Positions 40,532-64,000 are shown, counted from the stretch's first letter. The stretch is DNA of 64,000 nt from an uncultured Elusimicrobia bacterium (GCA_903830945.1 CAIKVT010000021.1:4519-68518); one strand, 5' to 3'. Numbers and translations: made by a program. The notes: generated from the sequence alone by a model not told the origin.

Positions 40532-42873
<2,342 letters not shown>

Positions 42874-42905
42874 ATGCCCGAGGAATATTGCTATAATTTG
42901 ACACT

Positions 42906-43247
42906 ATGATTTTATATGGATTTCTGAAGGTCGTGCATGTCTCCTCTTGCGCGCTTATGATCATCGTGGTGCTTCTGCAGACCGGTCGGGGAGCGGGTTT
43001 GTCCGTGTTCGGTGGTGGGGGGGACTCCCTGATCAATACGCCTTCCGGATCGGATTTCATGAAGAAGTTCACCGCGGTGTTGGCTGGGACTTTTGCTTTC
43101 ACTTCTCTGTTTTTGACCTTGCTCTCGAGCCGCGCCGGAATGTCGAGTGTCATGAGCCGGGTCCATCCGCCCGCCCCGCCTCCGTTGGAGGCTCCGGCTG
43201 TACCGGCTCCCGCGGCGCCGGCCGTGCCTGCGGGACAGGGCAAGTGA
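42906..43247 (+). CDS. secG: Preprotein translocase subunit SecG
   Basis: 113 aa with the SecG motif LLQTGRGAGLSVFGGGG and two TM segments. Confidence 0.8.
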   Translation: MILYGFLKVVHVSSCALMIIVVLLQTGRGAGLSVFGGGGDSLINTPSGSDFMKKFTAVLAGTFAFTSLFLTLLSSRAGMSSVMSRVHPPAPPPLEAPAVPAPAAPAVPAGQGK

Positions 43248-43254
43248 CGATTTA

Positions 43255-43336
43255 GCGCGGGTGGCGGAACTGGCAGACGCGTACGTTTGAGGGGCGTATG
43301 GGGAAACCCGTGGGGGTTCAAGTCCCCCCCCGCGCA
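43255..43336 (+). tRNA. tRNA-Leu (anticodon GAG)
   Basis: The sequence reads gcgcgggtggcggaactggcagacgcg, then stem tacgt/gcgta with loop ttGAGgg, a long variable arm and T-arm gggggttcaagtccccc. The acceptor is gcgcggg/cccgcgc with discriminator a. Confidence 0.8.
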
Positions 43337-43427
43337 TTTTAAGGTGAAGTTTCGGGCCGCTAGGCCCGGAGTATTAATTTGTGCCCTCATTTGTGCTATC
43401 TTTTCCTCATGTTAAGGGGGTCTTGAA

Positions 43428-44429: not shown

Positions 44430-44442
44430 CCGCGATCGCGAC

Positions 44443-46341: not shown

Positions 46342-46353
46342 CCGGCCGGTTCA

Positions 46354-49076: not shown

Positions 49077-49180
49077 AGTGCCGATATGTTGGCAAAGATT
49101 TCATCGCTCGTCAATGGTCCTGGCCGGTCTGGATATCCCGAAATTGTTGAAAACTCGAGCAAAATTGGCGAGAATGACTT

Positions 49181-51457: not shown

Positions 51458-51466
51458 GGGGCCCTC

Positions 51467-52105
51467 ATGGATGAGCATCTCCAAGTCGGAACATTGAATA
51501 TCCTGATGAATGCGGCAGAGGCCCTGAGGAAGAATGGCTTTGAGACCGAGGTGTTCGCGGACGGGGCGTCCGCGGTTGCGTACATCCTCAAGCTGATAGG
51601 CTTGGGCAAGACCGTGGGAATTGGCGGGACTATGAGCGTCGTGGAGCTCGGGCTTGCCGAGCGGCTGGTCGCGGCCCGCAACGAGATCGTCACCCATCAG
51701 CCTGGCATGGGGCCGGAGGAGCGCCGGCGCGTCTTCCGTCAGGCCCAGGCCGCTGATTTCTATATCGCTTCGCCCCAGGCCGTGACGCGGGACGGCAAGA
51801 TGATCTTCGTCGACGGATTTGGGAATCGCGTGTCCGCCATCAGCTATGGCCCGGGGCGGGTCATTCTGCTGGCCGGGCGCAACAAGCTGGTCCGAGATAT
51901 CGATGAGGGGCTCTGGCGGATGCGGAACATCGCCGCGTTGGCCAACAACATAAGGCTCAAGAAGAATAACCCTTGCGTGAAGGCCGGGCTTTGCGTGGAC
52001 TGCTCGAGCCCGGAGCGCATCTGCAATGTGGTGACCATGCTTTGGAAGAAGCCGCGTGGCACGGAGTACAGCGTGGTCCTAGTCAATGAGGAGCTCGGAT
52101 ATTGA
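51467..52105 (+). CDS. LUD-domain (DUF162, LutC/YkgG-like) protein
   Basis: 212 aa, with conservation of the LUD fold (GIGGTMSVVELGL.., ASPQAVTRDGKMIFVDG). Confidence 0.6.
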   Translation: MDEHLQVGTLNILMNAAEALRKNGFETEVFADGASAVAYILKLIGLGKTVGIGGTMSVVELGLAERLVAARNEIVTHQPGMGPEERRRVFRQAQAADFYIASPQAVTRDGKMIFVDGFGNRVSAISYGPGRVILLAGRNKLVRDIDEGLWRMRNIAALANNIRLKKNNPCVKAGLCVDCSSPERICNVVTMLWKKPRGTEYSVVLVNEELGY

Positions 52106-52141
52106 CCGGGCCTGCATTTTGGGCTAAAATATAATTACTTC

Positions 52142-52217
<76 letters not shown>

Positions 52218-52230
52218 ATCTCTGTGAAAA

Positions 52231-52260
52231 AAGCCCTCTGGCAAGAGGGCTTTTTTATTT
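52231..52260 (+). terminator. Rho-independent terminator downstream of tRNA-Ala
   Basis: The hairpin gccctct-ggca-agagggc at 52233-52250 is followed by tttttt. Confidence 0.75.
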
Positions 52261-52416
52261 TGTGCCGACGCGCGATGCTCAGGCTGGTTAGATAAACGGA
52301 ATACAAGTGTTCAACCGTTCCAATTTCTCAGACGGTTGTTTTCATCTTAAAATATCAGCCAGATTTTTTAGGCAAGTTCATCCCGGTATCTGTCTGTCTT
52401 GAAAAATGACCTCGAC

Positions 52417-52436
52417 ATGGACACTTTTTGGACACC
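52417..52436 (+). repeat. 20-nt direct repeat, copy 1 (atggacactttttggacacc; internal GGACAC-T5-GGACAC)
   Basis: It is identical to 63591-63610. It lies in the AT-rich spacer between the tRNA-Ala terminator and the ECF sigma gene. Confidence 0.8.
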
Positions 52437-52469
52437 AATAGCCGTCCCCGGCATTGATGCTTCTGGGAA

Positions 52470-53192
52470 ATGCGCATAGCCCGTGTATTGATTAATCATT
52501 TGGTTCATCGTCTTGATAATGCCATTATTTACACACTGTGCGAGTCTCGGAACATTGACTGCAATGACCGACCGCAGGCACTAAACCTTCGGGGACTTCC
52601 AGAGTCTATATTATCAGCAGGCATCTTGAACGGCCAGAACGTCGACATTGAACTCGTCGAGAGGGCGCGCAAAGGCGATGCCGATGCCTTTGGGATCCTG
52701 GTCATGCATTATCAACGCCTGCTCACAGTTATCGCATTTGAGATTCTGGGAGACACGGGGAGAACGGAGGATGTCGTGCAGGAAGCGTTCCTGTCCGCAT
52801 GGAAATCCCTCCCCCAATATAGGGGAGACGCCAGCTTCAAGAACTGGCTGTGCCGCATCCTGCTTAATAAGACCTATTCCGCGCTTCGTTGGGGACGCCT
52901 GCGCCGATGGCTCAGCCTCGACCAGCCATCCGGGGTTCCCTGGACCGAGACCTTGGAGGATACCGCGCCCGACGCGGACCCGGAACGCATCCGTCTGCGG
53001 GAGGAGCATTCGACCGCGGTGCGGCAGGCCGTGTCCGGTTTGCCGCTCCAGCAGAAGACCGCGGTCATATTGCGCTCCAACGGTCTTGACGTGGCCGAAG
53101 TGGCGCGGACCATGGGCGTCGCGGAGGGGACGGTCAAGGCGCATCTGCACCAGGCCCGCGCTCGACTCTCCTCGGTGATGGGGGGTACATGA
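52470..53192 (+). CDS. ECF (group 4) sigma-70 family RNA polymerase sigma factor
   Basis: Region 2 (LVERARKGDADAFGILVMHYQRLL..VQEAFLSAWKSL..FKNWLCRILLN) and region 4 (LRSNGLDVAEVARTMGVAEGTVKAHLHQARARL) are present. The ATG at 52470 gives 240 aa. A TTG at 52626 would give a more typical ~189 aa, so the start is uncertain. Confidence 0.8.
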   Translation: MRIARVLINHLVHRLDNAIIYTLCESRNIDCNDRPQALNLRGLPESILSAGILNGQNVDIELVERARKGDADAFGILVMHYQRLLTVIAFEILGDTGRTEDVVQEAFLSAWKSLPQYRGDASFKNWLCRILLNKTYSALRWGRLRRWLSLDQPSGVPWTETLEDTAPDADPERIRLREEHSTAVRQAVSGLPLQQKTAVILRSNGLDVAEVARTMGVAEGTVKAHLHQARARLSSVMGGT

Positions 53193-53536
53193 AACAAGAA
53201 GAAGACGACGCATTCTGGTCTGGAGTCGGGGACACGCTCCGGCCCCGCCTCAGCGAAGCTCATTGGACGGCTCAGCGCAACCGCATCCTTTCGCGGTTGG
53301 CCCCGGAGGAATCCGTGTCCGCATTCGCCGGCTGGTGGAAAGTCCCGGCGTTGACGCTGGCCTCGTGCGCTGTCTATGTGCTGTGCGTGGAGACATCCCT
53401 GCTCCCCCAGCCCACATCCGAACCGCCGGCCGCGGCGTCCTCGTCCGCCGGCGTCGTGACCCTGTCGACCATCCTGTCTGACGGGCAGGAGCCGAGCGAA
53501 GGGCATCTTTTGACCATGATCCTTGAAGGGGACTAA
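53189..53536 (+). CDS. Putative membrane-anchored anti-sigma factor
   Basis: 115 aa, translationally coupled to the ECF sigma gene (ATGA overlap), with a single TM (WWKVPALTLASCAVYVLCV). It is assigned by position and topology only. Confidence 0.5.
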   Translation: MKQEEDDAFWSGVGDTLRPRLSEAHWTAQRNRILSRLAPEESVSAFAGWWKVPALTLASCAVYVLCVETSLLPQPTSEPPAAASSSAGVVTLSTILSDGQEPSEGHLLTMILEGD

Positions 53537-53960
53537 AATGAACATGCGCTGGAATCAGATCGCCATATCGGTCGCGGTGGGCTTCCTTGCGGGAGCCTTG
53601 TTCTCCGATTTCTATCACATGCATATCAAGCGCAGGCCGCCCAAGGCCGTCCCGGAGGAAGGGGCGATAGAGAGGTGCACGCGCGAGTTGGACCTTTCCA
53701 AGCAGCAGCAGGACCAGGTGGCCGCCATCTTCAAGGAATATCGTCCAAAAGTGCGCGGTGTGAAGGATTCGATCCGGCCCGCATTGGAAGGCCTGCGCCT
53801 CAAGATCAAATCCGAATTGAGATCGGTCCTTACGCAGATGCAATACTCCAAGCTCGAAAAGCTCGACGATGAGTCCCGGCGGACCGAGGGTCCTCCGCCA
53901 ATGCGGGAGGGTCCAGGAGATTCCCGGCTACACGGCCAGGACCCGCCCCCCCGCCGCTAA
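53523..53960 (+). CDS. Periplasmic LTXXQ-motif protein (Spy/CpxP/ZraP-like)
   Basis: 145 aa with a signal/TM sequence, then helical repeats (LDLSKQQQDQVAAIFKEY.., LRLKIKSELRSVLTQMQYSKL) and a Pro-rich tail. The true start may be MNMRW at 53538. Confidence 0.5.
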   Translation: MKGTKMNMRWNQIAISVAVGFLAGALFSDFYHMHIKRRPPKAVPEEGAIERCTRELDLSKQQQDQVAAIFKEYRPKVRGVKDSIRPALEGLRLKIKSELRSVLTQMQYSKLEKLDDESRRTEGPPPMREGPGDSRLHGQDPPPRR

Positions 53961-54129
53961 GCCAGCGCCCTCCGGCGCAGACTCATCCGTTCCCACCCCC
54001 TAAATCCTCCTGCAGGGTCAACCGGGCCAGAATGCGTGTATTTTACAGGCATTTCCCCAAGTAAACCAAAATCCTTCCTGGGCGTCTCCATTGATGCAGG
54101 GGCTTTAGCCGGGCCGTCACAGAGGGTAT

Positions 54130-54687
54130 ATGCAAAAATCGATGGCCGCGATCTGCAACGCCGCGATCAGCGTGTGCCTTGGGACGATGATCCTGGGCGG
54201 CCGCGTGCAGGCTGCGGACTTCGGATCGGATGTGGGGCAAGGCACTTTCGGCGTCGGGCTGAACTACCCGGGGCTGGGCATGAGATATTTCCCGAGCGAT
54301 CAGCTGGCCTTGGAAGTCAAAGGCGAAGTAGACAAGGACGTGGTGGTCGGAGGCCTGCGGGGGTATTGCTATTTGACGCGCGTTTCCCGAGGAGCGCTTT
54401 TTCTGGGCGCGGAAGCCGACTACATACATTTCAAGGGAGCGGTCAGCCGGGGTTCCGGGGCTGTAGGCCAGGTGTTCGGCGGGTTCGAGTATTTTATATT
54501 GCAGGCTGTCGCTTTGCAGGCTGATTTTGGGCCGGCCTACATCTACCTTAAGAACCAGCAGGGCGGCCTTTCAGTCAGCGGCGTGGAGTACACGGCCAAT
54601 TTCGGGTTCAATTTCTATTGGGGAGGCAGAATGGCGCAAGAATCTCGGCCTTATACGCGGGATGAGGCTTCATGGTTGAGATATTGA
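54130..54687 (+). CDS. Small outer-membrane beta-barrel protein (OmpW/OmpA-barrel-like)
   Basis: 185 aa with a signal peptide, alternating hydrophobic beta-strand pattern and an aromatic-rich terminal strand (ANFGFNFYWGG). Confidence 0.5.
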   Translation: MQKSMAAICNAAISVCLGTMILGGRVQAADFGSDVGQGTFGVGLNYPGLGMRYFPSDQLALEVKGEVDKDVVVGGLRGYCYLTRVSRGALFLGAEADYIHFKGAVSRGSGAVGQVFGGFEYFILQAVALQADFGPAYIYLKNQQGGLSVSGVEYTANFGFNFYWGGRMAQESRPYTRDEASWLRY

Positions 54688-54688
54688 T

Positions 54689-57600
54689 ATGAAACGAATA
54701 TCCTGCTTGATCCTATTGGCGATCTTATCGATCACGGTCGATCTTTCAGCCGGATTCGACATCGGAATCACCAAAGCCATCAAGCGCAAGGTGGATTTGC
54801 TGGACAATAAAGTCACGGACAGCAGGAAGCCCGTGGTCTCGTTCGGATTCTCGCCGAGCGCACCCACCCCGGGCCAGACGGTAAGCTTCATCGACGTCTC
54901 CACGAATACGCTTACGTCATGGTCATGGGCATTCGGGGATGGTGCGACCAGCACCTCCCAAAACCCGGCCCACGCCTACAGCTTCGCGGGAACCTACGCA
55001 GTGACGCTCACAGGCACGAATGCCTGGGGCTCCAGCACCGCCAGGAAGACCGTGACCGTGACGGCCGCGGCGGTCGCGCCGGTCGCGGCCTTCAGCTTCT
55101 CGCCGTCCTCGCCGACCGCCGACCAGACGGTCACTTTCACGGACGTCTCCACCCACACGCCCACTTCCTGGTCTTGGACCTTCGGGGACGGGGGGACCAG
55201 CACTTCGCAAAACCCGACCCACGCCTACACTCCCTCCGGGACCTACATGGCCACGCTGACGGCCTCCAATTCAGCCGGCTCCAACGCCGTCAGCCGCACC
55301 GTGACCGTGAACCCGAGCTCTTTTTCCCTCGCTAGCTCCGCCTTCGCCGAGGGCGGAACCCTGCCGTACGACTACGCCTGCGACGGAGGAGGCGCCTCGC
55401 CCGACCTGTCCTGGAATAATAAGCCGTCCGGCACGCAGGAATTCGCGCTGACGATGAAGACTATAACTGCAGACGGGACGCCTAAATGGAACTGGGTGAT
55501 GTACAGCATCCCCGGGACGACTACGGGCTTGGCCAAGAACACTTCCGGGGTAGGCGTTACCGGGCTTGGCAGCGACCTGTCAGCCCTGGTCTATAATCCG
55601 CCCTGCTCGCTGGGGCCCGGACCCAGGACTTACACCCTGACCTTGTACGCGCTGTCGGAGTCGCCGACCCTGCCCGCCGCCGACCAGGTCACCGGCGCCG
55701 TGCTTATCAGCGCCATTTCGTCCATCACGATCAGTTCGACTTCCCTGGACATGACCTACAGCCGGCCCGCCCCCACGGCCGCTTTCACCTTCTCCCCGTC
55801 CTCTCCGTCTACTGGCACGATCGTTGCTTTTATGGATACCTCCACCCGCACGCCCACCGGCTGGTACTGGGACTTCGGGGATGGGGCGACCAGCAGTTCG
55901 CGGAACTCCACACACGCCTACAGCTCTGCGGGTACGTACACCGCATCGCTGACGGCCTCCAATCCGTACGGCTCCTCCAGCTCAAGCCAGGCCGTGACAG
56001 TCAGCGCGACTGGGATCCTACCCACGGCCGCGTTCAGCTTCTATCCGAGCAGTCCGACCACCTATAACACGGTAAGCTTCACCGACTTCTCGCTGAGCAC
56101 CCCGACGGCCTGGGCCTGGAATTTCGGCGACAGCGCCGTCAGCACGGCACAGTACCCGACGCACGTATACGGCTCCGCGGGCACCTACACCGTGACGCTC
56201 ACGGCGACTAATTCCTCCGGCTCGTCCACCTCGACCCATTCCGTGACCGTGGCCGTGCCGGCCTATAACATCGCGCAGGGCGTTTCCGACCAGGCCCAGG
56301 GCACCACTTTGGCCTTTGACGCCCTCGGCCTGATGAACGCCAACCTGGGCGCCGAATCCTATTTCCCGCCGGGCAAGGTGGCCGACTACACAGGCTTCCA
56401 GTTCCTACGCGACAGCGACCCCAGCAATATGGGCCACAACCCGGATTTCACGGGCCTGACCTCCAACAGCGTCATCCGTATACTCACCGACAGCCAACTG
56501 GCGCAACTGGCTGCCCTGGCCGTGAGCCAGGCGGACCTGGTCAACCAGTACGCATATCACCGCTTCACGCTGATAAAGGCGTTCCGGCGTCTTATGGACG
56601 GGGATATGCCCTCCGGCACCGCCGGTCTGAGCATGAGCGCGGTGACGGGCGTGTCGCAGAACCTCTACGCTATGGACGGCCAGATCGCCTTCGACCGGGC
56701 CCTGCTCTACGCCAACATCTACAAGTCCATGACGCGCGCCCAGCTGGCCGCCCTGGATGCCATGAAAGGGGTGGGCGCCTCCTCCTGGACCGTAACCGAC
56801 GCCAATTTCATGAAGGCCAGGGTAGAGTCCGCGCTGGGTCTCACCTATGCTTCCAACGCGACGATGAACACCCTGGTGCAGACCTACGCCGGCGACCTCT
56901 ACAGCTGGTATTCCGGCACGGTGGAGGCGGACGTCTACTTCTGCCCGGAGCGCCACGGCACCTACTACGGCGGGTTCTACATCAAGGACGCGCCGGCCAT
57001 GAACGCGCCGCAGGGCGTCAGTTACACCATTGACTCGGCTCTGACCGGGAACGCCGGGGCCAGCCTTCTCGACAGCTCGCTGGGCTACGTCACACCCACG
57101 CAGGCCGCCATCATGACTAACCTCATGAACACCCAGAAGAGCAACATGAACGGCATAGTCCAGGTGCGCACGCAGATAGCGGCTCTGCTGCGCACCCTGC
57201 TTGTCTCTACCGCTGCCAGCGACTCCGTCAGGGCGCAGGTGCTCGCGCTGTCCTCCGGCACCTACGGCACGCTGGACGGCCGGAACAACTACTACTACGC
57301 CACCGCCTTCAAGCAGGTCCATGACGCGCTGAGCGCTAGCCAGCGGGCCAAGCTGAAAACGGATTTCTGGGATGGGCTGCTTATCAGCACCTACACCAAC
57401 GGAAAAACTTACGACTATTCGGTCTGCAAATCCACTTATCTCTATTCGGACACCACCACCGACCCGAGCGTGCTGGCCCAGATACAGACTTACATAGACA
57501 ACACCGACTCCCTGTTCTCCACCGACCCGCCCTCGGCCGCGTTCTCATTCTCGCCGAGCACGCCCACGGTCGGGCAGACGATCACGTTCACGGACGCCTC

Positions 57601-58225
57601 CGACGGCCCCCCAACCTCATGGTCGTGGGATTTTGGTGACGGCGGCACCAGCGCGTCGCAGAACCCGACGCACTCTTACGATTCCTCCGGCACCTACACT
57701 GTCTCGCTGACGGCCACCAATGCCATCGGCTCGAGCTCCATAAGCCATACCCTCAGCGTCAGCCAGGGAAGTTTTACCCTGGTGAGCGGCGCGGGGGCCA
57801 GCGGCGGGGCCATGACGCTGGAATATTCCTGTTCCGGCGCCGGGTCTTCGCCGGCGATGTCCTGGACCAACGCGCCCTCCGGGACGCAACAGTTCGCTCT
57901 GACCATGTCTGAAGTCACTCCCCAGTTGGAGACCAAATATAACTGGGTCCTCTACGGCATACCAAGCGGCAGTTCCGGCTTTGCCAAGAACACTACCGGC
58001 GGTGGAACGCTGGGCGAGAGCGACGGAACGGCGGGAACGGCTTACAGCCCGCCCTGCGGCCCCGGTAACAGGCTTTATACGTACAGACTCTACGCCCTGT
58101 CCGGAGCCCCATCGCTCTCGTCCAATCCGGCGCAGGTAACAGGTTCCGTTCTTGCGACCGCGCTCGCGGGCATCACCATCAGTTCCGCGACCATGACGCT
58201 GACCTATACGGCGCCATCGCCATGA
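54689..58225 (+). CDS. Giant secreted multidomain protein: five PKD domains, two PEBP (YbhB/YbcL) domains and a central ~400-aa domain of unknown family
   Basis: 1178 aa. PKD signatures WxWxFGDGxTSxxQNPxHxY occur at about aa 77, 166, 392, 476 and 976. PEBP-like segments lie at about aa 215-335 and 1032-1150 (..YACDGGGASPDLSW.., ..YTLTLYAL..). The central region (about aa 527-955) is paralogous to the protein at 58992-60626. Confidence 0.8.
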   Translation: MKRISCLILLAILSITVDLSAGFDIGITKAIKRKVDLLDNKVTDSRKPVVSFGFSPSAPTPGQTVSFIDVSTNTLTSWSWAFGDGATSTSQNPAHAYSFAGTYAVTLTGTNAWGSSTARKTVTVTAAAVAPVAAFSFSPSSPTADQTVTFTDVSTHTPTSWSWTFGDGGTSTSQNPTHAYTPSGTYMATLTASNSAGSNAVSRTVTVNPSSFSLASSAFAEGGTLPYDYACDGGGASPDLSWNNKPSGTQEFALTMKTITADGTPKWNWVMYSIPGTTTGLAKNTSGVGVTGLGSDLSALVYNPPCSLGPGPRTYTLTLYALSESPTLPAADQVTGAVLISAISSITISSTSLDMTYSRPAPTAAFTFSPSSPSTGTIVAFMDTSTRTPTGWYWDFGDGATSSSRNSTHAYSSAGTYTASLTASNPYGSSSSSQAVTVSATGILPTAAFSFYPSSPTTYNTVSFTDFSLSTPTAWAWNFGDSAVSTAQYPTHVYGSAGTYTVTLTATNSSGSSTSTHSVTVAVPAYNIAQGVSDQAQGTTLAFDALGLMNANLGAESYFPPGKVADYTGFQFLRDSDPSNMGHNPDFTGLTSNSVIRILTDSQLAQLAALAVSQADLVNQYAYHRFTLIKAFRRLMDGDMPSGTAGLSMSAVTGVSQNLYAMDGQIAFDRALLYANIYKSMTRAQLAALDAMKGVGASSWTVTDANFMKARVESALGLTYASNATMNTLVQTYAGDLYSWYSGTVEADVYFCPERHGTYYGGFYIKDAPAMNAPQGVSYTIDSALTGNAGASLLDSSLGYVTPTQAAIMTNLMNTQKSNMNGIVQVRTQIAALLRTLLVSTAASDSVRAQVLALSSGTYGTLDGRNNYYYATAFKQVHDALSASQRAKLKTDFWDGLLISTYTNGKTYDYSVCKSTYLYSDTTTDPSVLAQIQTYIDNTDSLFSTDPPSAAFSFSPSTPTVGQTITFTDASDGPPTSWSWDFGDGGTSASQNPTHSYDSSGTYTVSLTATNAIGSSSISHTLSVSQGSFTLVSGAGASGGAMTLEYSCSGAGSSPAMSWTNAPSGTQQFALTMSEVTPQLETKYNWVLYGIPSGSSGFAKNTTGGGTLGESDGTAGTAYSPPCGPGNRLYTYRLYALSGAPSLSSNPAQVTGSVLATALAGITISSATMTLTYTAPSP

Positions 58226-58295
58226 TGAAAGATCCAGGCGCCGCCAGGCTGGACTTCTTGCCGGCAAAACAGTTTAAACTATGTCTGGAGGAATT

Positions 58296-58910
58296 ATGAA
58301 ACGGCTGACATTTTTAGAGCTTGGCTTGATGCTAGTGCTTTCCCTTCCGGGCGGAGCCGCCCTGGCGCAGTCGGAGCAAGGCGCGGTGAGGAAAAGTCCC
58401 GCACTCCACTTCATCCTGCGTAGCCCGGCGGTGGATGGCGGCGGACAGCTCCCGAAAGACTACACCGGCGACGGAACCAGTTCCACGCTGCCGCTCGAAT
58501 GGAACGGAGCCCCAAAGGAGACAAAGAGTTTCGCAATCATCATGCATCATGTGGCGCCTGACATGATCAAGTGGTACTGGATCCTCTACGACATTCCGGC
58601 CAAAGTCAGGCGCCTGCCCAAGAACGTGAAAGGCGTGGGCAAGCTTGGCAACAACAGCGTCAACGGCCGGGTGGAGTACGCCCCGCCGCATTCCAAGGGC
58701 CCGGGACCCAAGACCTACATCTACACCCTCTACGCCCTATCCGCGCCGCCCAAGCTGGCTGTGCCACCGATTGAAGTCAACCGCGACGCCTTGCTCGCCG
58801 CCATGAAGGGCCTCGTCATCGACAGCGCCCAGCTAAGCGTGGTTTACGAACGGTTTCCCGCACCGGACGGCCGCGAGGGGAATGCGCCGCCCCCAAACGA
58901 CCGGCCATAA
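58296..58910 (+). CDS. Secreted PEBP family protein (YbhB/YbcL, Raf-kinase-inhibitor-like)
   Basis: Signal peptide, then PEBP motifs (LPLEWNGAPKETKSFAIIMHH..DMIKWYWILYDIP..GPKTYIYTLYAL). Confidence 0.8.
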   Translation: MKRLTFLELGLMLVLSLPGGAALAQSEQGAVRKSPALHFILRSPAVDGGGQLPKDYTGDGTSSTLPLEWNGAPKETKSFAIIMHHVAPDMIKWYWILYDIPAKVRRLPKNVKGVGKLGNNSVNGRVEYAPPHSKGPGPKTYIYTLYALSAPPKLAVPPIEVNRDALLAAMKGLVIDSAQLSVVYERFPAPDGREGNAPPPNDRP

Positions 58911-58991
58911 TGCAAGGAATTATATGAGGGCTGACCTAAACCAAAATCATGTTCGGGCGTCTGTATATATGAGGGGTCTTGAGGAGGACTT

Positions 58992-60626
58992 ATGAAAATG
59001 AGAGCGTTCTTGATAGCCGCAATTTTCTCCCTATTGGCTTGGTCAGCTGGGAATTCTTATGCCCAGGAAGAGAATGGCGGGGGTGGAAGAGGCCCGCGCA
59101 GAGGATCGCAGTCTGTCTCCGCAGAGCAAAAGGCCTCCGCCAAGAATGCCCTTTCGGGCTACAACGCCTCGAGCCTCTCAGCCGACGATGCCAAGGCCAT
59201 CCACAGGGCCATGCGGGAGATCGGCATCCACGGGGGGCCTGCGGAGGACGAGCTTCTCAGCTCCATCGGGTTCGACCCCGAAACGCTTAAGAAACTCGAT
59301 CCGCCGCCGGCCAGGCGCGGCGGCCAAGAGAGAGGGGGCAATAGCGGAGGGAGCTCACGGGAGGACCGCGGCGGAGGGATGCGCGGGGACCAGGGCCAAG
59401 ACAGAGGCGGCGAGAGAGCTGGGGCGAGGCCGGGCCCATCGGGGAAGCGCGGCCCGGGCGGCAGCCAATATAGCCTCGAGCAGGCGCTCTCGGACAACGC
59501 CCAGCTGCACACCATCGCATTCAATGGACTGGCGTTTCTGACCGGCGATTTCGGTGCAGCCACCTTCATCCCGCCGGGCAAGGTGTGCGACTTCTTTGGG
59601 TTCCAATACATGCGCGACATCGACGCGGCGAAGAAGGGGCATAACCCCATCTTCCTCAACCGCGTCGTGGGAAACGTCCTTCATATCCTCACAGCCGATC
59701 AAAAGCAGCTGTTTCTGGACCTGGCGGCGGAGCAGGGGCCGCAGCTTACGGCCCTGGCGAAGCTGCGGCTGCCGGTCATCAAGGCTTTCCACCTACAGAG
59801 GGACAACCAGCTGCCTGCGGGCAGTTCCGGGCTGAACAAGGCAGCCGTCATGCGCGGCGTCGGCGAGATCTTCGCCATGGACGCCGAACTCAGCCGCCGT
59901 CGGGCGGAGGTCATGGCGCAGGTGTATTTATCCCTGACGCCTGACCAGAAGGCTTCCTTCGCCAGGATGAAGTTCGGCGATTTCAACACCTGGGCGGACC
60001 TCGACGAGAGCGAAGGCAAGGAAGCCGGCCGCGGCAAGCCCAAGATGTTCAACGTGGCCTATATGACCTACGCCAGCGAGTTCTTCAGCTGGACCGCCGG
60101 CTCGGTGGAAGCGGACGTCTATTTCTGCCCGGAGCGTCACGGCACGTACTTCGGCGGATTCTACATGAAGGACATGCCCGCCATGGGCAAGCGCAATTAC
60201 GACATCAGCACCTCGGTCACCGGCGACAGCGGCAAGGCGTTCCTTGACGACGCGCTCACCCCCGCCCAGCGCCAGAACGTCACAGCGATCCCCGCCCTCC
60301 AGCGGCAGGCCATGGACAAGATCGTGACGGTGCGCCGGGCGATGTCCCAGGAGCTGCGCAAATACCTCAAAGGCCAGACGCCGGACAAGAAAAGGATAAT
60401 AGCGTTGGGCCGCCAATACGGCGAACTGGACGGTGAGGTGTCCTGGTACTATGCCACGGCCTTCGCCCGCGTCAACCGCACGCTCACCGCTCAGCAGCGC
60501 GCTGCATTGGTCAAGCTGCGCAACTTGGACGGCTACACGAGCGCGCCCTATTACATCTATTCGGATGGTGCGCGGGAGGAGCCGGAATTGGGAGACGTCG
60601 ATGCCTTCTTCTTTGCGCCTAAATAA
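58992..60626 (+). CDS. Secreted protein: Gly/Arg-rich low-complexity N-terminal segment plus a ~400-aa domain of unknown family shared with the giant PKD protein
   Basis: 544 aa with a signal peptide. About aa 28-160 are RGG/GGR-rich. About aa 165-544 align with the giant-protein centre (shared blocks FIPPGKVxDFxGFQ..RD.D....GHNP.F and SVEADVYFCPERHGTYFGGFY.KD.PAM). Confidence 0.7.
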   Translation: MKMRAFLIAAIFSLLAWSAGNSYAQEENGGGGRGPRRGSQSVSAEQKASAKNALSGYNASSLSADDAKAIHRAMREIGIHGGPAEDELLSSIGFDPETLKKLDPPPARRGGQERGGNSGGSSREDRGGGMRGDQGQDRGGERAGARPGPSGKRGPGGSQYSLEQALSDNAQLHTIAFNGLAFLTGDFGAATFIPPGKVCDFFGFQYMRDIDAAKKGHNPIFLNRVVGNVLHILTADQKQLFLDLAAEQGPQLTALAKLRLPVIKAFHLQRDNQLPAGSSGLNKAAVMRGVGEIFAMDAELSRRRAEVMAQVYLSLTPDQKASFARMKFGDFNTWADLDESEGKEAGRGKPKMFNVAYMTYASEFFSWTAGSVEADVYFCPERHGTYFGGFYMKDMPAMGKRNYDISTSVTGDSGKAFLDDALTPAQRQNVTAIPALQRQAMDKIVTVRRAMSQELRKYLKGQTPDKKRIIALGRQYGELDGEVSWYYATAFARVNRTLTAQQRAALVKLRNLDGYTSAPYYIYSDGAREEPELGDVDAFFFAPK

Positions 60627-60632
60627 GGAAGA

Positions 60633-62051
60633 ATGCTGATGATCCGCATACCGGTCATCGGAATCATCCTCGCCCTGGCCGCAGGCCCGGCTTGCGCAGC
60701 GCCGGATGCCGAGGGGCGGGGTCGCGGCGGGCGTCACGGTCCGGAGCACCAGGCCAAGGTCGAAGTGCCTGCGCGTCCTCTGGATGTCGTTCTCGGCAGA
60801 CCCACGGCGACCTCGGTCACGGCCAGCGTCCTTTTGTACGCAGGCGGACGCGGAAGCGTCGAGTATGGAGTGCGCCAGGGAGAGTACCCGGACCATACTC
60901 CCGTGACCGAGTTCGGCAAAGGAACCCCGGTCCACATGGTGATCGGACCCCTTAAGGCCGACACGCGCTATTATTATCGGTTCCGTCACGAGACCGCCGG
61001 CGCGCAGGGCGCGGTCGCAGGCACATTCCACACCCAGCGCGCGCCCGGCAGCGCTTTCGTGTTCACTGTGCAGGCTGATTCTCACCTGGATCAGAACACA
61101 AGCACCGAGCTCTACGAGCGGACGCTGCGCAACGCCCTGGCCGACAGGCCGGATTTCCATATCGACCTGGGCGACACGTTCATGACCGGGAAGTATCGGG
61201 GCCAGGATCCATCGAGGCTTTACCTGGCGCAGCGCTACTATTTCGGCTTGCTTTGCCATTCCGCGCCTCTTTTTTTCGTGCTCGGCAATCACGACGGGGA
61301 ACCAGGCGGCGGCCGCGGACAGCCAGCCGACGCGATCCTGCTGCGCAAGAAGTACTTCCCCAACCCTGTCCAGGACGGGTTCTACACGGGAGAGGACCGT
61401 GGCGCCCTGGAGAACTATTACGCGTGGCAATGGGGCGACGCGCTGTTCGTCGTGCTCGACCCGTTCCGATATTCCGGTCGGCCTCGTGGCGAGCCGGAGG
61501 ACAACTGGAACATGACTTTGGGGGCGGAGCAATATCATTGGCTGAAGCGGACTCTGGAAAACAGCAAGGCCGCGTTCAAATTCGTGTTCATCCATCATCT
61601 GGTCGGTGGTGTAAACCGCGACGGCCGCAACCGCGGCGGGGCCGAGGCCGCGGCGTTCTATGAGTGGGGGGGGCGCAACGCGGACGGCAGCGATGGTTTC
61701 GCGGAGCAACGCCCCGGCTGGGAGATGCCCATCCAGCAGCTCCTTGTGCGCAACGGCGTGCAGATCGTTTTTCACGGTCACGACCATTTTTTCGCGAAGC
61801 AGGACCTGGGCGGCATCGTCTACCAGCTTGTGCCGCAGCCCGGAGCACAGGAGCGCCGCAGCGTGCGAGAAGCCGAACGCTATGGATATGAGAAAGGCGA
61901 ATTCCTGAGCAGCCCCGGCCACCTGCGCGTCCGCGTGTCCCCGAACAGCGCTGTTGTGGAGTGCGTCCGGTCACGCTTGCCGGAAGATGAGGGGATGCGG
62001 AAAGAGAAAGACGCGGTCGCCTACACCTATACGATCCCGGCTGCGCCATAA
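60633..62051 (+). CDS. Secreted calcineurin-like metallophosphoesterase with a purple-acid-phosphatase-type N-terminal domain
   Basis: Signal peptide, then an FN3-like N-domain (..VTASVLLYAGGRGSVEYGV..ADTRYYYRFRH). Phosphoesterase motifs are present: GDTFMTGKY, VLGNHDGE and FHGHDHFF. Confidence 0.8.
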   Translation: MLMIRIPVIGIILALAAGPACAAPDAEGRGRGGRHGPEHQAKVEVPARPLDVVLGRPTATSVTASVLLYAGGRGSVEYGVRQGEYPDHTPVTEFGKGTPVHMVIGPLKADTRYYYRFRHETAGAQGAVAGTFHTQRAPGSAFVFTVQADSHLDQNTSTELYERTLRNALADRPDFHIDLGDTFMTGKYRGQDPSRLYLAQRYYFGLLCHSAPLFFVLGNHDGEPGGGRGQPADAILLRKKYFPNPVQDGFYTGEDRGALENYYAWQWGDALFVVLDPFRYSGRPRGEPEDNWNMTLGAEQYHWLKRTLENSKAAFKFVFIHHLVGGVNRDGRNRGGAEAAAFYEWGGRNADGSDGFAEQRPGWEMPIQQLLVRNGVQIVFHGHDHFFAKQDLGGIVYQLVPQPGAQERRSVREAERYGYEKGEFLSSPGHLRVRVSPNSAVVECVRSRLPEDEGMRKEKDAVAYTYTIPAAP

Positions 62052-62065
62052 TCGGATTAGCGCGA

Positions 62066-62251
62066 TCAGGGTGTAGGTGCGGGCCGGAAGACTTTCTTGC
62101 AAAGCCGCCAAATCACGACGCCGACATGCCGCACGACAATCTTATCTCGGCTCGCCTTCATCCCTTTTTTGGCCAGGGCGATCAGCCGCCGCTCAGCTGC
62201 CAGAGGCAGCCTCGGATACTGCCGGACCACCTCGCGATAAGCTTCCCACAT
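62066..62251 (-). pseudogene. Possible truncated remnant of a sigma-70 family gene (regions 1.2-2.1 only)
   Basis: The 61-aa ORF YREVVRQYPRLPLAAERRLIALAKKG..SRDKIVVRHVGVVIWRLCKK resembles sigma-70 region 1.2 (YLREIGRVPLLTxEEEIxLAKR) and the start of region 2 (KxKLIEANLRLVVSIAKKY). It ends abruptly 15 nt from the phosphoesterase stop codon. Confidence 0.3.
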
Positions 62252-62409
62252 ACGGCATATGATGACGAATGCGGATGCGGCTTACACACTCGGCCGAGAG
62301 AGGCGGTCGGGGCCGTGGAGTTTGAGGCCGTAGGCTCATTCTTCGGGGTTGGGGCCGATATTATAATTGACATATAACATGGCGTTTATTATGATAATAG
62401 CCGCTATAT

Positions 62410-63564
62410 ATGGTAACCAATATGCCTGAAAACATCACACGGATACTCGACATCCGTAAAGAAGTCGAGAAAAAGTCGTGTTTCCTATTCGGCCCCAGGC
62501 TGACAGGGAAGACTTGGCTTCTGCGGCATACTCTTAAAAATATCCGGACCTACAACTTGTTGGACCACGACACCTTTCTGCGTCTCAGCCGCTCTGCCAG
62601 CCTCATAGGTGAGGAATGTACGGCTCGGGACTCCATCGTCGTCATCGATGAGGTCCAGAAGCTCCCTTCGCTGCTTGATGCGGTCCACATGCTCATCGAG
62701 GAGCGAGGGATCCATTTTCTTTTGACCGGATCCAGCGCCCGAAAGCTGCGCCGCGGCGGCGTCAACTTGTTGGGGGGCAGGGCCCGGATCAGGAATCTCT
62801 ACCCCTTGAGTTTCTCCGAACTACAGAAGTCCTTCAATCTTGAGCGTGCCGTCAACCACGGACTGCTCCCGGCTATTTACTCGTCGCAGGAGCCGGACGA
62901 GGACTTGAAGGCCTATGTGGGCACGTACCTTCAAGAGGAAGTGGCCGCCGAAGGATTGACGCGAAATATCCCGGCCTTCAGCCGATTCCTGGAAGTGGCC
63001 GCCTTGTGCAACGGCAAGATGATTAATTTCGCCAACATCGCCAACGACGCACAGGTGGCGCGCAGCACCGTTCAGGAATACTTCCAAATACTCAAAGACA
63101 CATTGCTCGCTCATGAGGTGCCGGCTTGGCGCAAATCCGTAAGGCGTAAGCCCATCACAACCTCGAAATTCTATCTGTTCGATTCAGGGGTCGCCCGGAT
63201 CCTTCAGCACCGTGGCCGCATCAATCCTGGCTCTCCGGAATTCGGAGAAGCCTTCGAACACTTCATATTCCATGAATTGTTGACCTACGCCGACTATTGC
63301 CGGGCAGGAGAGATCCGCTACTGGCGGTCGCTCTCCGGTTTTGAGGTCGACTTCGTCCTGGGAGACACTGCAGCCATCGAAGTGAAAGCTGGCAAGAACG
63401 TGTCTCCGCAGGACCTCAAGGGTCTGCGCGCCTTACGCGAAGAGGGGGGCCTCAAGCACTATCTAATGGTGTCCGGCGAGAGAACCGCGCGGGTCATCGA
63501 CGGCATACGCATTCTTCCCTGGAAGGAATTCCTCCAACAGCTTTGGGATGGACGATTCAGCTGA
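62410..63564 (+). CDS. AAA-family ATPase of the AAA_14/DUF4143 type
   Basis: 384 aa with Walker A FLFGPRLTGKTWLL and Walker B VVIDEVQKL. The C-terminal ~150 aa have the conservation typical of DUF4143. An AT-rich promoter-like region lies upstream. Confidence 0.7.
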   Translation: MVTNMPENITRILDIRKEVEKKSCFLFGPRLTGKTWLLRHTLKNIRTYNLLDHDTFLRLSRSASLIGEECTARDSIVVIDEVQKLPSLLDAVHMLIEERGIHFLLTGSSARKLRRGGVNLLGGRARIRNLYPLSFSELQKSFNLERAVNHGLLPAIYSSQEPDEDLKAYVGTYLQEEVAAEGLTRNIPAFSRFLEVAALCNGKMINFANIANDAQVARSTVQEYFQILKDTLLAHEVPAWRKSVRRKPITTSKFYLFDSGVARILQHRGRINPGSPEFGEAFEHFIFHELLTYADYCRAGEIRYWRSLSGFEVDFVLGDTAAIEVKAGKNVSPQDLKGLRALREEGGLKHYLMVSGERTARVIDGIRILPWKEFLQQLWDGRFS

Positions 63565-63590
63565 CGGGACGTCCTCAAACCATAGGAAAG

Positions 63591-63610
63591 ATGGACACTT
63601 TTTGGACACC
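63591..63610 (+). repeat. 20-nt direct repeat, copy 2 (atggacactttttggacacc)
   Basis: It is a perfect match to 52417-52436, and lies 26 nt after the ATPase stop and 85 nt before the tRNA-Ala fragment. Confidence 0.8.
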
Positions 63611-63695
63611 GGGGAAGTCCTGAAGAGTGCTGTCAGTATCGAATAGCGCATGCGCCATCAGCAATTTTAGCCACTGAGCGGCATCCGTGATTGGC

Positions 63696-63743
63696 TGCAT
63701 GGCATGCAAGAGGTCGTCAGTTCGATCCTGACTAGGTCCACCA
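63696..63743 (+). other. Direct repeat of the 3' 48 nt of tRNA-Ala (46/48 identical, includes CCA): candidate att site / island boundary
   Basis: tgcatggcatgcaagaggtcgtcAgttcgatccTgactaggtccacca matches 52170-52217 with two mismatches. The sequence upstream (gccactgagcggcatccgtgattggc) is not tRNA-like. Confidence 0.8.
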
Positions 63744-63764
63744 TTTCAAGCAGCGTCAGTGGCA

Positions 63765-63812
63765 AGAAATCGGCCGGAGCACTTTTGAGTGCTTCGGCCG
63801 ATTTCTTCTTGG
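63765..63812 (+). terminator. Terminator-like long imperfect hairpin followed by a T-rich tract
   Basis: aaatcggccggagcac at 63767-63782 pairs with gtgcttcggccgattt at 63789-63804, followed by cttcttggtg. Confidence 0.45.
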
Positions 63813-63930
63813 TGCGATACTATCATGAGAGAGTTCATGTGTCTCTCAATGGGCGAGTGTCCGCAGAAAGGCTAGAATAAAAAGAACAATATTGTGCGAA
63901 GCTGAATCGGAGCACCGGCTTGCCGACCTC

Positions 63931-64000
63931 ATGACATCCTCAAGCATCCGCGTCATCCTCCATGTCGATATGGATGCATACTTCGCTTCGGTCGAGCAGA
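63931..64000 (+). CDS. dinB: DNA polymerase IV (Y-family), N-terminal 23 codons only
   Basis: It translates to MTSSSIRVILHVDMDAYFASVEQ. The HVDMDAFFASVE segment is the conserved Pol IV N-terminus containing the catalytic Asp residues. It runs off the window. Confidence 0.7.
   Translation, partial: MTSSSIRVILHVDMDAYFASVEQ

What the first reader, a model, noticed from the sequence alone, without database searches (positions are those of the whole stretch)
52218..63743. tRNA-Ala-associated ~11.5-kb island with a 48-nt att-like repeat but no integrase
The intact tRNA-Ala (52142-52217) has its 3' 48 nt, including CCA, duplicated at 63696-63743 with 46/48 identity. That is the classic footprint of site-specific integration into a tRNA 3' end. 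Both borders are conspicuously AT-rich compared with the surrounding sequence. A perfect 20-nt direct repeat lies just inside each end. The cargo is a self-contained set of envelope and secreted proteins.

No integrase, excisionase or transposase ORF is present in any frame. Either the element is a decayed or satellite island mobilised in trans, or the tRNA fragment has another origin.
Basis: seen in the sequence. Interest (0 to 1): 0.75.

Follow-up and report, generated by a model that had tools for sequence, protein, structure and literature searches.

The report
Integrase-less gene island at tRNA-Ala
An 11.5-kb block of foreign genes sits in the 3' half of an alanine tRNA gene of an uncultured Elusimicrobiota bacterium and has no recombinase of its own, which makes it a fairly ordinary decayed or helper-dependent genomic island.

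Summary
tRNA-Ala(GGC) lies at 52142-52217. Its last 48 nt recur at 63696-63743 (46/48), and a perfect 20-nt repeat lies just inside each end.

Comparison with relatives shows a real insertion. The distal fragment and its terminator match the tRNA 3' end and terminator of the sister genome. The working tRNA carries a different T-stem pair and a terminator seen in more distant lineages. So incoming DNA rebuilt the tRNA and pushed the native 3' half 11.5 kb downstream. No relative has these genes at tRNA-Ala.

No recombinase or remnant was found in the called ORFs or the non-coding gaps. The island is composite. It holds a 9.4-kb ECF-sigma envelope operon that occurs at unrelated sites in other genomes, and a 1.6-kb low-GC AAA+/DUF4143 ATPase module (defence candidate PDC-S01).

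No empty site or circular form was found. The right flank (dinB) is not the ancestral neighbour; relatives have a response regulator there.

Best reading: a decayed or trans-dependent integrative island (CIME-like). Rival: integrase-free "insertion with long target duplication". Relatives of the ATPase gene are flanked by 32-44-nt repeats in three unrelated loci.

This is a new member of a known kind, of modest interest.

The parts
52142..52217 (+). Intact tRNA-Ala(GGC). The 5' 28 nt are host sequence. The 3' 48 nt carry the G:C T-stem variant.
   Evidence: ARAGORN; Rfam tRNA 63.7 bits; variant table
52170..52217 (+). Proximal 48-nt repeat (attL-like core), from the anticodon stem to CCA. This is the imported copy.
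52227..52256 (+). Terminator hairpin H1. It resembles the tRNA-Ala terminators of the distant G:C-type lineages L009 and L015, not that of the sister genome.
52257..52625 (.). AT-rich non-coding left arm (GC about 0.45) with no recombinase remnant
52417..52436 (+). 20-nt motif copy 1, ATGGACACTTTTTGGACACC (two GGACAC half-sites 11 bp apart), 200 nt inside the left end
52626..53192 (+). ECF-type sigma-70 factor (188 aa; a longer ORF starts at 52470)
   Evidence: Pfam Sigma70_r2/r4_2; NCBIfam; gene call
53189..53536 (+). 115-aa ORF with no family hit. It holds the position of an anti-sigma partner (inferred). Other copies of the operon have a gene at this position (L018, 169 aa); sequence similarity was not tested.
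53538..53960 (+). 140-aa protein with weak LTXXQ/Metal_resist (Spy/CpxP-like) similarity
54130..54687 (+). 185-aa ORF with no family hit, conserved in the operon elsewhere; not a resolvase
54689..58225 (+). 1178-aa protein with five PKD domains and two PEBP (YbhB/YbcL-like) domains
58296..58910 (+). 204-aa PEBP-family protein
58992..60626 (+). 544-aa LTXXQ (Spy/CpxP-like) protein. Its family is very large and spans several phyla at 55-75% identity.
60639..62051 (+). 470-aa calcineurin-like metallophosphoesterase with a signal-peptide-like N-terminus; last gene of the operon
62052..62353 (.). Junction between the operon and the ATPase module. Non-coding, with only short ORFs without family hits.
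62354..63564 (+). AAA_14/DUF4143 ATPase module: about 56 nt of conserved promoter/operator (TTGACA-17-TATGAT) plus CDS 62410-63564. It matches PADLOC defence candidate PDC-S01 and has GC 0.556. DNA similarity to relatives ends exactly at the stop codon.
63591..63610 (+). 20-nt motif copy 2, 27 nt after the ATPase stop codon and 85 nt before the distal repeat
63696..63743 (+). Distal 48-nt tRNA-Ala 3' fragment (attR-like), A:T T-stem variant, 48/48 identical to the tRNA of the sister genome. This is the displaced native 3' half.
63764..63807 (+). Terminator hairpin H2, orthologous to the terminator after tRNA-Ala in the sister genome (L001 17529-17640 matches window 63696-63807 at 91%)
   Evidence: (I6)
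63930..64000 (+). Start of dinB (IMS family), the right flank. It is not the ancestral neighbour of tRNA-Ala in relatives.

Best explanation
The 11.5-kb segment is a horizontally acquired insertion in the 3' half of tRNA-Ala(GGC) of an Elusimicrobiota genome. A circular DNA carried its own copy of the last 48 nt of this tRNA (anticodon stem to CCA) plus a terminator. It recombined once with the chromosomal tRNA gene, somewhere in the first 23 nt of the repeat and probably in the anticodon loop. This rebuilt a working tRNA from the host 5' part and the imported 3' part (G:C variant, terminator H1). It left the native 3' half (A:T variant, terminator H2) 11.5 kb downstream. These steps are shown by comparison with relatives. 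Inferred: a tyrosine integrase catalysed the event, because the repeat has the canonical anticodon-centred extent. The integrase gene was either later deleted or was never on the element and acted in trans. What remains is a non-autonomous island that keeps both ends but has no recombination genes (CIME-like). It is composite: a 9.4-kb ECF-sigma envelope operon and a 1.6-kb PDC-S01 ATPase-nuclease defence-candidate module. The paired 20-nt motif at about -105 and +200 from the core may be arm-type binding sites for that integrase; this is speculative. The island looks fixed and currently immobile in the sampled populations.
For: The repeat is real and has the canonical extent. Islander describes the rebuilt tDNA plus displaced fragment as the island signature and describes anticodon-centred sites (PMC4383910). 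The sister genome R is 88.9-91.6% identical in flanking genes. R has one intact tRNA-Ala whose 3' half is 48/48 identical to the distal fragment here, followed by the same terminator H2. All syntenic relatives (R, L021, L022, L023) carry the A:T variant. The G:C variant and an H1-like terminator occur only in the more distant L009 and L015 (L020 also carries the G:C variant) and in the working tRNA here. No relative has the cargo after tRNA-Ala. The cargo operon occurs as an intact cassette at unrelated sites without a detected tRNA in other genomes, at 76-80% nt identity. No recombinase or remnant is present. Both junctions were assembled independently. The CIME definition fits: integration and transfer genes lost, attL and attR kept (PMC5704250).
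Against: No integrase, excisionase or any remnant of one was found, in the island or within 10 kb downstream. So integrase involvement is inference only. No empty-site allele and no circular junction turned up among the 9 metagenome and 4 genome loci that carry the 48-mer or in viral contigs. The right flank (dinB) is not syntenic with relatives, where a response regulator follows tRNA-Ala. At least one further rearrangement must be assumed. The operon's composition is nearly host-like. The imported piece includes a terminator like native tRNA-Ala terminators of other lineages. That looks more like donor chromosomal DNA than a dedicated attP. The 20-nt motif also sits just downstream of H2 in R, where there is no island, and the arm-site idea does not explain this by itself.
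Confidence: 0.55

Rival explanations
1. Integrase-free insertion. The segment entered by RecA-type Campbell recombination through the 48-nt homology, or by the poorly understood 'insertion with long target duplication' route described for restriction-modification genes. The DUF4143 ATPase-nuclease (PDC-S01) would be the selfish or defence gene that travels this way, with the ECF operon as passenger or later addition.
For: Relatives of the ATPase gene are flanked by imperfect direct repeats that duplicate the 3' end of the upstream gene or an intergenic stretch. L021: 44 nt, 95% identical, made of the last 10 nt of the same tRNA-Ala plus its terminator, spacing 1308. L026: 41 nt, 88%, the 3' end and stop codon of a peptidase gene, spacing 1290. 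L038: 32 nt, 31/32, spacing 1406. L054: about 26-55 nt, ambiguous. No recombinase gene lies between the repeats or among the genes called in these short loci. In controls, none of about 125 random intervals outside repeat genes reaches these scores. Many homologue clusters have longest contigs of 1.33-1.43 kb, about cassette size. Furuta et al. 2010 describe 46-49-bp target duplications around RM genes with no mobility genes, overlapping the 3' ends of genes (PMC2853133). DUF4143 belongs to the PD-(D/E)XK nuclease superfamily (PMC3424549; PMC12988326).
Against: In this window the ATPase has no short-range flanking repeat; its only partner is 11.5 kb away. The two repeat copies differ by a lineage-specific base pair and are followed by different terminators. 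The incoming DNA therefore carried its own copy, and the target was not simply duplicated in place. The repeat boundary matches the canonical anticodon-centred integrase site. Eight other ATPase loci have no repeat (L024, L028, L058, L027, L048, L050-L053). A ninth, L049, has only a weak 18-nt one (z 5.9). L060 and L061 carry the same protein as L058 and also show none. Homologous Campbell integration cannot be told apart from site-specific integration using the product alone.
Confidence: 0.25
2. Not a discrete element. A chunk of chromosome from another Elusimicrobiota lineage (tRNA-Ala G:C type, its terminator, the ECF operon and an ATPase islet) was incorporated by homology-facilitated illegitimate recombination anchored in the conserved tRNA. 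The fragment is a by-product of that event.
For: The imported left end (3' half plus H1) resembles the native tRNA-Ala loci of L009 and L015 over at least 90 nt. The operon's GC, GC3 and tetranucleotide use are nearly host-like, as expected for a related donor. The tRNA-Ala neighbourhood is rearranged on both sides in several relatives.
Against: The illegitimate joint would have to fall exactly at the anticodon stem of the recipient tRNA, reproducing the canonical att extent by coincidence. No genome examined has the operon next to tRNA-Ala as the supposed donor would.
Confidence: 0.12
3. Artefact or chance: a chimeric metagenome assembly joined at tRNA sequence shared between co-occurring strains, or a chance repeat.
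For: The window comes from metagenome assemblies. The sister genome R co-occurs in the same samples and shares about 50-nt exact runs at both ends. Two samples give contigs of 11,609 and 11,596 nt that hold only the island genes, so those assemblies break at both ends.
Against: Several other ENA assemblies place the island inside 50-200-kb contigs in the same context. A JGI sample reproduces both junctions at 100% identity. The repeat scores E about 1e-18.
Confidence: 0.03

Closest known systems
tRNA-integrated genomic islands as defined by Islander (Hudson, Lau & Williams 2015; Williams 2002), anticodon-centred 'A' sites
   Same: There is an intact, rebuilt tRNA gene plus a displaced 3' fragment in direct orientation. 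The repeat runs from the anticodon stem to the 3' end. The imported copy differs from the native one. The size is in the usual island range.
   Different: There is no tyrosine integrase gene, which Islander requires. There are no phage or conjugation genes. The right flank is not the ancestral neighbour.
CIMEs (cis-mobilizable elements, e.g. CIME19258 and CIME302 of Streptococcus thermophilus; definition in Guedon et al. 2017, PMC5704250)
   Same: The element keeps attL- and attR-like repeats and carries no integration or transfer genes. It could in principle be moved by an incoming related element or an integrase supplied in trans.
   Different: No recognisable remains of an ICE or IME were found, and there is no related autonomous element to pair it with. 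Cis-mobilisation is untested. The host phylum has no described ICEs.
'Insertion with long target duplication' of restriction-modification genes (Nobusato et al. 2000; Furuta, Abe & Kobayashi 2010, PMC2853133)
   Same: The insert is under 20 kb with no mobility genes. It is flanked by a repeat of more than 30 bp (48 bp) that is single-copy in the comparison genome. It carries a nuclease-type defence gene at one end, and the repeat covers the 3' end of a gene.
   Different: The defence gene is a PDC-S01 ATPase-nuclease, not an RM system. Most of the insert is a non-defence operon. The repeat copies differ in a way that shows an imported copy, not a fresh duplication.
PADLOC defence candidate PDC-S01 (AAA_14 + DUF4143, COG1373)
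   Same: The gene at 62410-63564 matches seven PDC-S01 profiles (best E = 6e-57) and has the ATPase + PD-(D/E)XK architecture.
   Different: PDC-S01 is a prediction that lacks experimental validation (PMC12988326). No mobility form has been described for it in the papers found here.

Membership tests
tRNA-integrated genomic island (Islander definition) | Intact tDNA plus a cognate 3' fragment in direct orientation on the same replicon | tested here: met
   48 nt, 46/48, same strand, and the only fragment in the window
tRNA-integrated genomic island (Islander definition) | Repeat boundary at a canonical crossover sublocation (anticodon loop, T loop, or T/acceptor junction) | tested here: met
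   The repeat starts in the 5' arm of the anticodon stem, which is the 'A' class of PMC4383910
tRNA-integrated genomic island (Islander definition) | A tyrosine integrase gene inside the island | tested here: not met
   no Phage_integrase, resolvase or transposase hit in the ORFs or in the six-frame translation of the gaps
tRNA-integrated genomic island (Islander definition) | Island absent from related genomes, with an uninterrupted target | tested here: inconclusive
   R, L009, S3, L021 and L023 have an intact tRNA-Ala without the cargo. Their downstream neighbour is a response regulator or another gene, not dinB, so no exact empty site was seen.
CIME (cis-mobilizable element) | attL and attR retained | tested here: met
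   Both 48-nt copies are intact
CIME (cis-mobilizable element) | Integration and transfer genes lost | tested here: met
CIME (cis-mobilizable element) | Derived by decay from an ICE or IME (remnants, or a related autonomous element) | tested here: not met
   There are no remnants in the gaps. No attP-form or integrase-bearing relative was found in metagenome, genome or viral scans for the 48-mer or the motif.
CIME (cis-mobilizable element) | Excision or transfer when a cognate element supplies the recombinase | not testable with these tools
   Needs reads or an experiment
Insertion with long target duplication (Furuta 2010 criteria) | Flanking direct repeat of more than 30 bp that aligns with a single copy in the comparison genome | tested here: met
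   The 48-bp repeat matches R's single tRNA at 48/48 (distal copy) and 46/48 (proximal copy)
Insertion with long target duplication (Furuta 2010 criteria) | Insert under 20 kb without mobility-related genes | tested here: met
   11.5 kb
Insertion with long target duplication (Furuta 2010 criteria) | Insert consists of R and M genes | tested here: not met
   There are no RM genes. The insert holds one nuclease-ATPase defence candidate plus an eight-gene ECF operon.
Prophage or phage satellite | Phage structural, replication or packaging genes | tested here: not met
   None found in Pfam or NCBIfam. There is no match in viral contigs.
PDC-S01 defence candidate (gene 62410-63564 only) | AAA_14 ATPase fused to a DUF4143 (PD-(D/E)XK) domain that matches the PADLOC profiles | tested here: met

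The most novel reading that the evidence does not exclude
DUF4143/PDC-S01 ATPase-nuclease genes are themselves integrase-free mobile cassettes of about 1.3 kb. They insert at the 3' ends of genes, including tRNA-Ala, and leave 26-48-nt target repeats. The island here was created or carried by such a cassette. This would extend the unexplained 'long target duplication' mobility of RM systems to one of the commonest defence candidates in prokaryotes.
Probability: 0.12. Interest if true: 0.75.

Novelty: new member of a known kind. Interest (0 to 1): 0.35.

Why it matters
The island is a clean, precisely mapped example of horizontal acquisition in Elusimicrobiota, a phylum known almost only from metagenomes and with no described integrative elements. 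It shows the tRNA-Ala(GGC) locus to be a recombination hotspot on both sides in this clade.

In itself the island is ordinary. Islands that keep their tRNA repeats and have lost, or never had, an integrase are a known category.

Two by-products may be worth more than the island. The first is that PDC-S01 ATPase genes recur as repeat-flanked single-gene insertions. The second is the eight-gene ECF / PKD-PEBP / Spy-like / phosphoesterase operon, which is conserved across phyla and has no known function.

Tried and rejected
- **Pseudogenised integrase.** I translated the three non-coding gaps in six frames and scanned all short ORFs against Pfam at E<=1. Nothing was found.
- **Integrase elsewhere in the window.** Ten candidate ORFs of 314-418 aa are all housekeeping or have no hit.
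- **An attP form or an element carrying an integrase.** The 48-mer (both variants) and the 20-nt motif gave no hits in viral contigs. Metagenome and genome contigs gave 9 and 4 loci for the 48-mer. All are chromosomal tRNA loci or this genome itself.
- **Exact empty site (tRNA-H2-dinB).** Not found.
- **A known RNA at the borders.** Rfam finds only the tRNA.
- **The 20-nt motif as part of the ATPase unit.** Rejected, because similarity to the ATPase loci L024 and L026 ends at the stop codon.
- **The ATPase as a tRNA-targeting gene in general.** Rejected. None of the other ATPase loci scanned with ARAGORN (L024-L026, L028, L038, L048-L053) holds a tRNA; only L021 has one next to the ATPase.
- **The 11.6-kb island-only contigs as excised circles.** Their lengths do not equal 11,526 plus a standard k-mer, and the two differ from each other. 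They are better explained by graph breaks at tRNA sequence shared with co-occurring relatives.
- **ATPase relatives in viral contigs.** Only one distant hit.
- **The 25-nt repeat D14 (51823 / 63641).** Judged a chance match.
- **The 61-aa ORF at 62066-62251 (minus strand).** It looked sigma-factor-like by eye, but it has no significant Pfam match (best E 0.021, an unrelated family), so no claim is made.

Full report
**1. The observation**

ARAGORN places an intact tRNA-Ala(GGC) at 52142-52217. Its last 48 nt (52170-52217) recur at 63696-63743 with 46/48 identity, on the same strand (D7). A sensitive search with the tRNA finds no other fragment in the window, and this match has E about 1e-18.

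The repeat starts in the 5' arm of the anticodon stem and ends at CCA. The two mismatches are the two partners of one T-stem pair: G:C in the working tRNA and A:T in the fragment.

The 20-nt repeat ATGGACACTTTTTGGACACC is perfect at 52417 and 63591. It has no further copy in the window even with three mismatches, and none is expected by chance.

A hairpin terminator follows each copy of the 48-mer: H1 at 52227-52256 and H2 at 63764-63807. The left border is strongly AT-rich. The right 1.7 kb is only moderately so.

**2. What is inside**

The gene calls and families give, in order:
- an ECF sigma factor;
- a 115-aa ORF and a 140-aa Spy/LTXXQ-like protein;
- a 185-aa ORF;
- a 1178-aa protein with five PKD and two PEBP domains;
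- a PEBP protein;
- a 544-aa LTXXQ protein;
- a metallophosphoesterase;
- after a 300-nt gap, an AAA_14/DUF4143 ATPase (62410-63564).

The ATPase matches PADLOC defence candidate PDC-S01. This family is an ATPase fused to a PD-(D/E)XK nuclease domain. It is very common and has not been validated experimentally (PMC3424549; PMC12988326).

No ORF and none of the three non-coding gaps shows any recombinase, resolvase or transposase similarity. The 10 kb beyond dinB also has none, and neither do ten candidate ORFs elsewhere in the window.

**3. Whose genome, and is the assembly sound**

Homologues of the flanking LUD-domain protein are named Elusimicrobia or Elusimicrobiota. The same arrangement sits inside 50-200-kb contigs in several other ENA assemblies. 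A JGI metagenome reproduces both junctions at 100% identity (L012, L010).

**4. Comparison with relatives**

This is the decisive evidence. The sister genome R (L001-L004, L011) is collinear with window 41943-52109 at 70-89% nt identity. It is clearly closer than the other relatives. For the LUD 3' end, W-R identity is 91.6% against 75.5% for W-L009. For the CHASE2 3' end, W-R is 88.9% against 77.9% for W-L021.

R has one intact tRNA-Ala. Its 3' half is 48/48 identical to the distal fragment here, and the same terminator H2 follows it (L001 17529-17640 matches window 63696-63807 at 91%). The other syntenic relatives (L021, L022/S3, L023) also carry the A:T variant.

The G:C variant and an H1-like terminator occur only in the working tRNA here and in the more distant L009 and L015; L020 shares the G:C variant. 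By parsimony the W-R ancestor had A:T plus H2. So the distal fragment is the native 3' end. The 3' half that now completes the tRNA, with H1, came in with the insert. This is the rebuilt-target-plus-displaced-fragment signature used by Islander, with an anticodon-centred site (PMC4383910).

None of the relatives has the cargo after tRNA-Ala:
- R has a response regulator about 0.6 kb downstream.
- L009 has it 171 nt downstream.
- S3 has an outer-membrane protein and then the response regulator.
- L023 has an unknown gene, a cupin gene and then a response-regulator-domain protein.
- L021 has a different DUF4143 ATPase.

**5. What does not fit a simple insertion**

No such site exists in any relative, because the conserved neighbour is a response regulator. 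Similarity between this genome and R ends about 70 nt after the fragment. A second rearrangement therefore lies just to the right.

The neighbourhood is unstable on the left too. R has a 6.8-kb efflux operon between LUD and the tRNA. L021 lacks LUD. S3 and L023 have OmpA next to the tRNA.

I found no empty-site allele and no circular junction. Two samples yield island-only contigs of 11,609 and 11,596 nt. Their lengths fit breaks at tRNA sequence shared with co-occurring R, not a circle.

**6. The island is composite**

The operon from the ECF sigma factor to the phosphoesterase is a conserved cassette. It recurs at 76-80% nt identity in other genomes, at unrelated sites and with no tRNA in the loci held. 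One copy lies between a TPR protein and the mur genes; that copy ends at the LTXXQ gene and has no phosphoesterase. Another lies between radical-SAM genes and arsR.

The family of its 544-aa protein is very large and spans several phyla at 55-75% identity. The operon's GC, GC3 and tetranucleotide use are close to host values, at the 95th percentile of control windows.

The ATPase module has lower GC (0.556). DNA similarity to its closest relatives (85% and 78% aa) runs from about 56 nt upstream of the ATG to the stop codon exactly, in quite different contexts.

**7. An unexpected pattern around the ATPase family**

In L021 a 25%-identical DUF4143 ATPase sits directly after the same tRNA-Ala. 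It is flanked by a 44-nt repeat (95% identical) made of the last 10 nt of the tRNA plus its terminator, with spacing 1308.

In L026 the 78%-identical ATPase is flanked by a 41-nt repeat that copies the 3' end and stop codon of the upstream gene (spacing 1290). In L038 a 32-nt repeat (31/32) flanks the gene (spacing 1406). L054 has a 26-55-nt repeat of the upstream kinase's 3' end, which is ambiguous because the neighbouring genes are paralogues.

Eight other loci have no such repeat, and a ninth (L049) has only a weak 18-nt one. Random 1.15-kb intervals outside repeat genes never reach these scores, in 0 of about 125 trials.

This closely resembles the 'insertion with long target duplication' reported for restriction-modification genes. 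Those cases have 46-49-bp repeats, no mobility genes, and repeats that overlap gene 3' ends (PMC2853133).

In this window, however, the ATPase has no short-range partner repeat; the partner lies 11.5 kb away. The two copies also differ in a lineage-specific way. The simple in-situ duplication model therefore does not apply here.

**8. The 20-nt motif**

The motif consists of two GGACAC half-sites 11 bp apart. In a circular form of the island they would lie about 105 nt before and about 200 nt after the 48-nt core. That is the geometry expected for arm-type integrase sites.

The same 20-mer also occurs once in R, 16 nt after H2. There it is followed by the same AGCCGTC that follows copy 1 here. 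It is absent from all other loci and from viral contigs.

Either R keeps the left end of an older related element, or the motif is a native feature downstream of tRNA-Ala in this lineage. I cannot decide between these.

**9. Mechanism and verdict**

Shown:
- A foreign DNA carrying its own tRNA-Ala 3' half recombined with the chromosomal tRNA gene by a single Campbell-type crossover within the first 23 nt of the repeat.
- It rebuilt the tRNA and displaced the native 3' half.
- The insert carries no recombinase.

Inferred: a tyrosine integrase did this, because of the canonical anticodon-centred extent, and it was later lost or acted in trans (CIME-like; PMC5704250). I put this at about 0.55.

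The main rival, at about 0.25, is an integrase-free route linked to the PDC-S01 nuclease-ATPase. Transfer of a chromosomal chunk from a related donor (about 0.12) and artefact (about 0.03) are less likely.

Integrase-less islands bounded by tRNA repeats are a known category. This is therefore a new member of a known kind, in a poorly known phylum, and its interest is modest (0.35). The recurrent repeat-flanked PDC-S01 cassettes are the lead most worth following.

Noticed in passing
L021:1074-2425; L026:2194-3524; L038:2785-4222; L054:2281-3784 (compare window 62354-63743): DUF4143/AAA_14 ATPase genes (PADLOC PDC-S01) recur as single-gene insertions of about 1.3-1.4 kb. They are flanked by imperfect 26-44-nt direct repeats that duplicate the 3' end of the upstream gene (tRNA-Ala in L021, protein genes in L026 and L054) or an intergenic stretch (L038). 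No recombinase gene lies between the repeats or among the genes called in these loci. The pattern resembles the 'long target duplication' mobility described for RM systems.
   Followed up: partly
window 52626-62051; L017, L018, L019: The eight-gene operon (ECF sigma, two small ORFs, a 185-aa ORF, a PKD-PEBP giant, a PEBP protein, a 544-aa Spy/LTXXQ protein and a metallophosphoesterase) is a conserved cassette found in different genomic contexts. Its 544-aa protein belongs to a very large family spanning Planctomycetota, Verrucomicrobiota, Lentisphaerota, Hydrogenedentota and others at 55-75% identity, often fused to PEBP. Its function is unknown.
   Followed up: partly
window 52417-52436 and 63591-63610; L001:17657-17676: The perfectly conserved 20-mer ATGGACACTTTTTGGACACC also occurs once in the sister genome, 16 nt after the tRNA-Ala terminator and outside any island. 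There is no flanking similarity apart from 7 nt (AGCCGTC) shared with copy 1. It is absent from all other loci and from viral contigs. It could be an arm-type site, an operator or something else; this is unresolved.
   Followed up: partly
L001:10644-17460 versus window 52106-52141: The sister genome has a 6.8-kb ABC/RND-type efflux operon with a TetR regulator between the LUD gene and the tRNA-Ala promoter. This operon is absent here. L021 lacks LUD, and S3 and L023 have OmpA next to tRNA-Ala. The upstream side of this tRNA is therefore also a hotspot for rearrangement.
   Followed up: partly
beyond window 64000 (gene list); L001:18156-18575; L009:97-507: Relatives have a response-regulator gene downstream of tRNA-Ala. 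This genome has instead dinB, EamA, an HTH_17-EIIA protein and an Mrp/complex-I-like cluster. A second rearrangement breakpoint lies about 70 nt after the tRNA fragment.
   Followed up: partly
ENA samples ERZ1426818 and ERZ1426660 (no DNA available): Two assemblies contain contigs of 11,609 and 11,596 nt that hold only the island genes, so they break at both tRNA-derived ends. This is probably a graph break at sequence shared with co-occurring relatives. Strain heterogeneity could not be excluded.
   Followed up: no
L028:1985-5106: In a gammaproteobacterial MAG a 64%-identical PDC-S01 ATPase sits inside the cell-division cluster between murB and ftsQ. The arrangement is the same in all 10 places shown, from different samples, and there is no flanking repeat.
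   Followed up: no
L048:625-3673 (Simkania negevensis plasmid pSn): A 38%-identical DUF4143 ATPase lies between a 201-aa and a 326-aa gene that are both annotated as site-specific integrase. I did not check whether the ATPase interrupts one integrase gene or sits between two.
   Followed up: no
L049:1150-1180 and 2740-2770 (Agrobacterium pusense plasmid): A distant DUF4143 ATPase is flanked by an 18-nt repeat, GGTTCGATTCCYTTCAAG, that looks like a tRNA T-arm. No intact tRNA is present. The signal is weak (z 5.9).
   Followed up: no
window 62367-62409; L024:9933-10000; L026:2263-2322: A conserved promoter-like stretch of about 56 nt lies upstream of the ATPase gene. It has TTGACA-17-TATGAT with an AT-rich near-palindrome, GCGTTTATTATGATAATNGCC. 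It is shared by homologues in unrelated contexts, which suggests a self-contained and possibly autoregulated expression unit.
   Followed up: no
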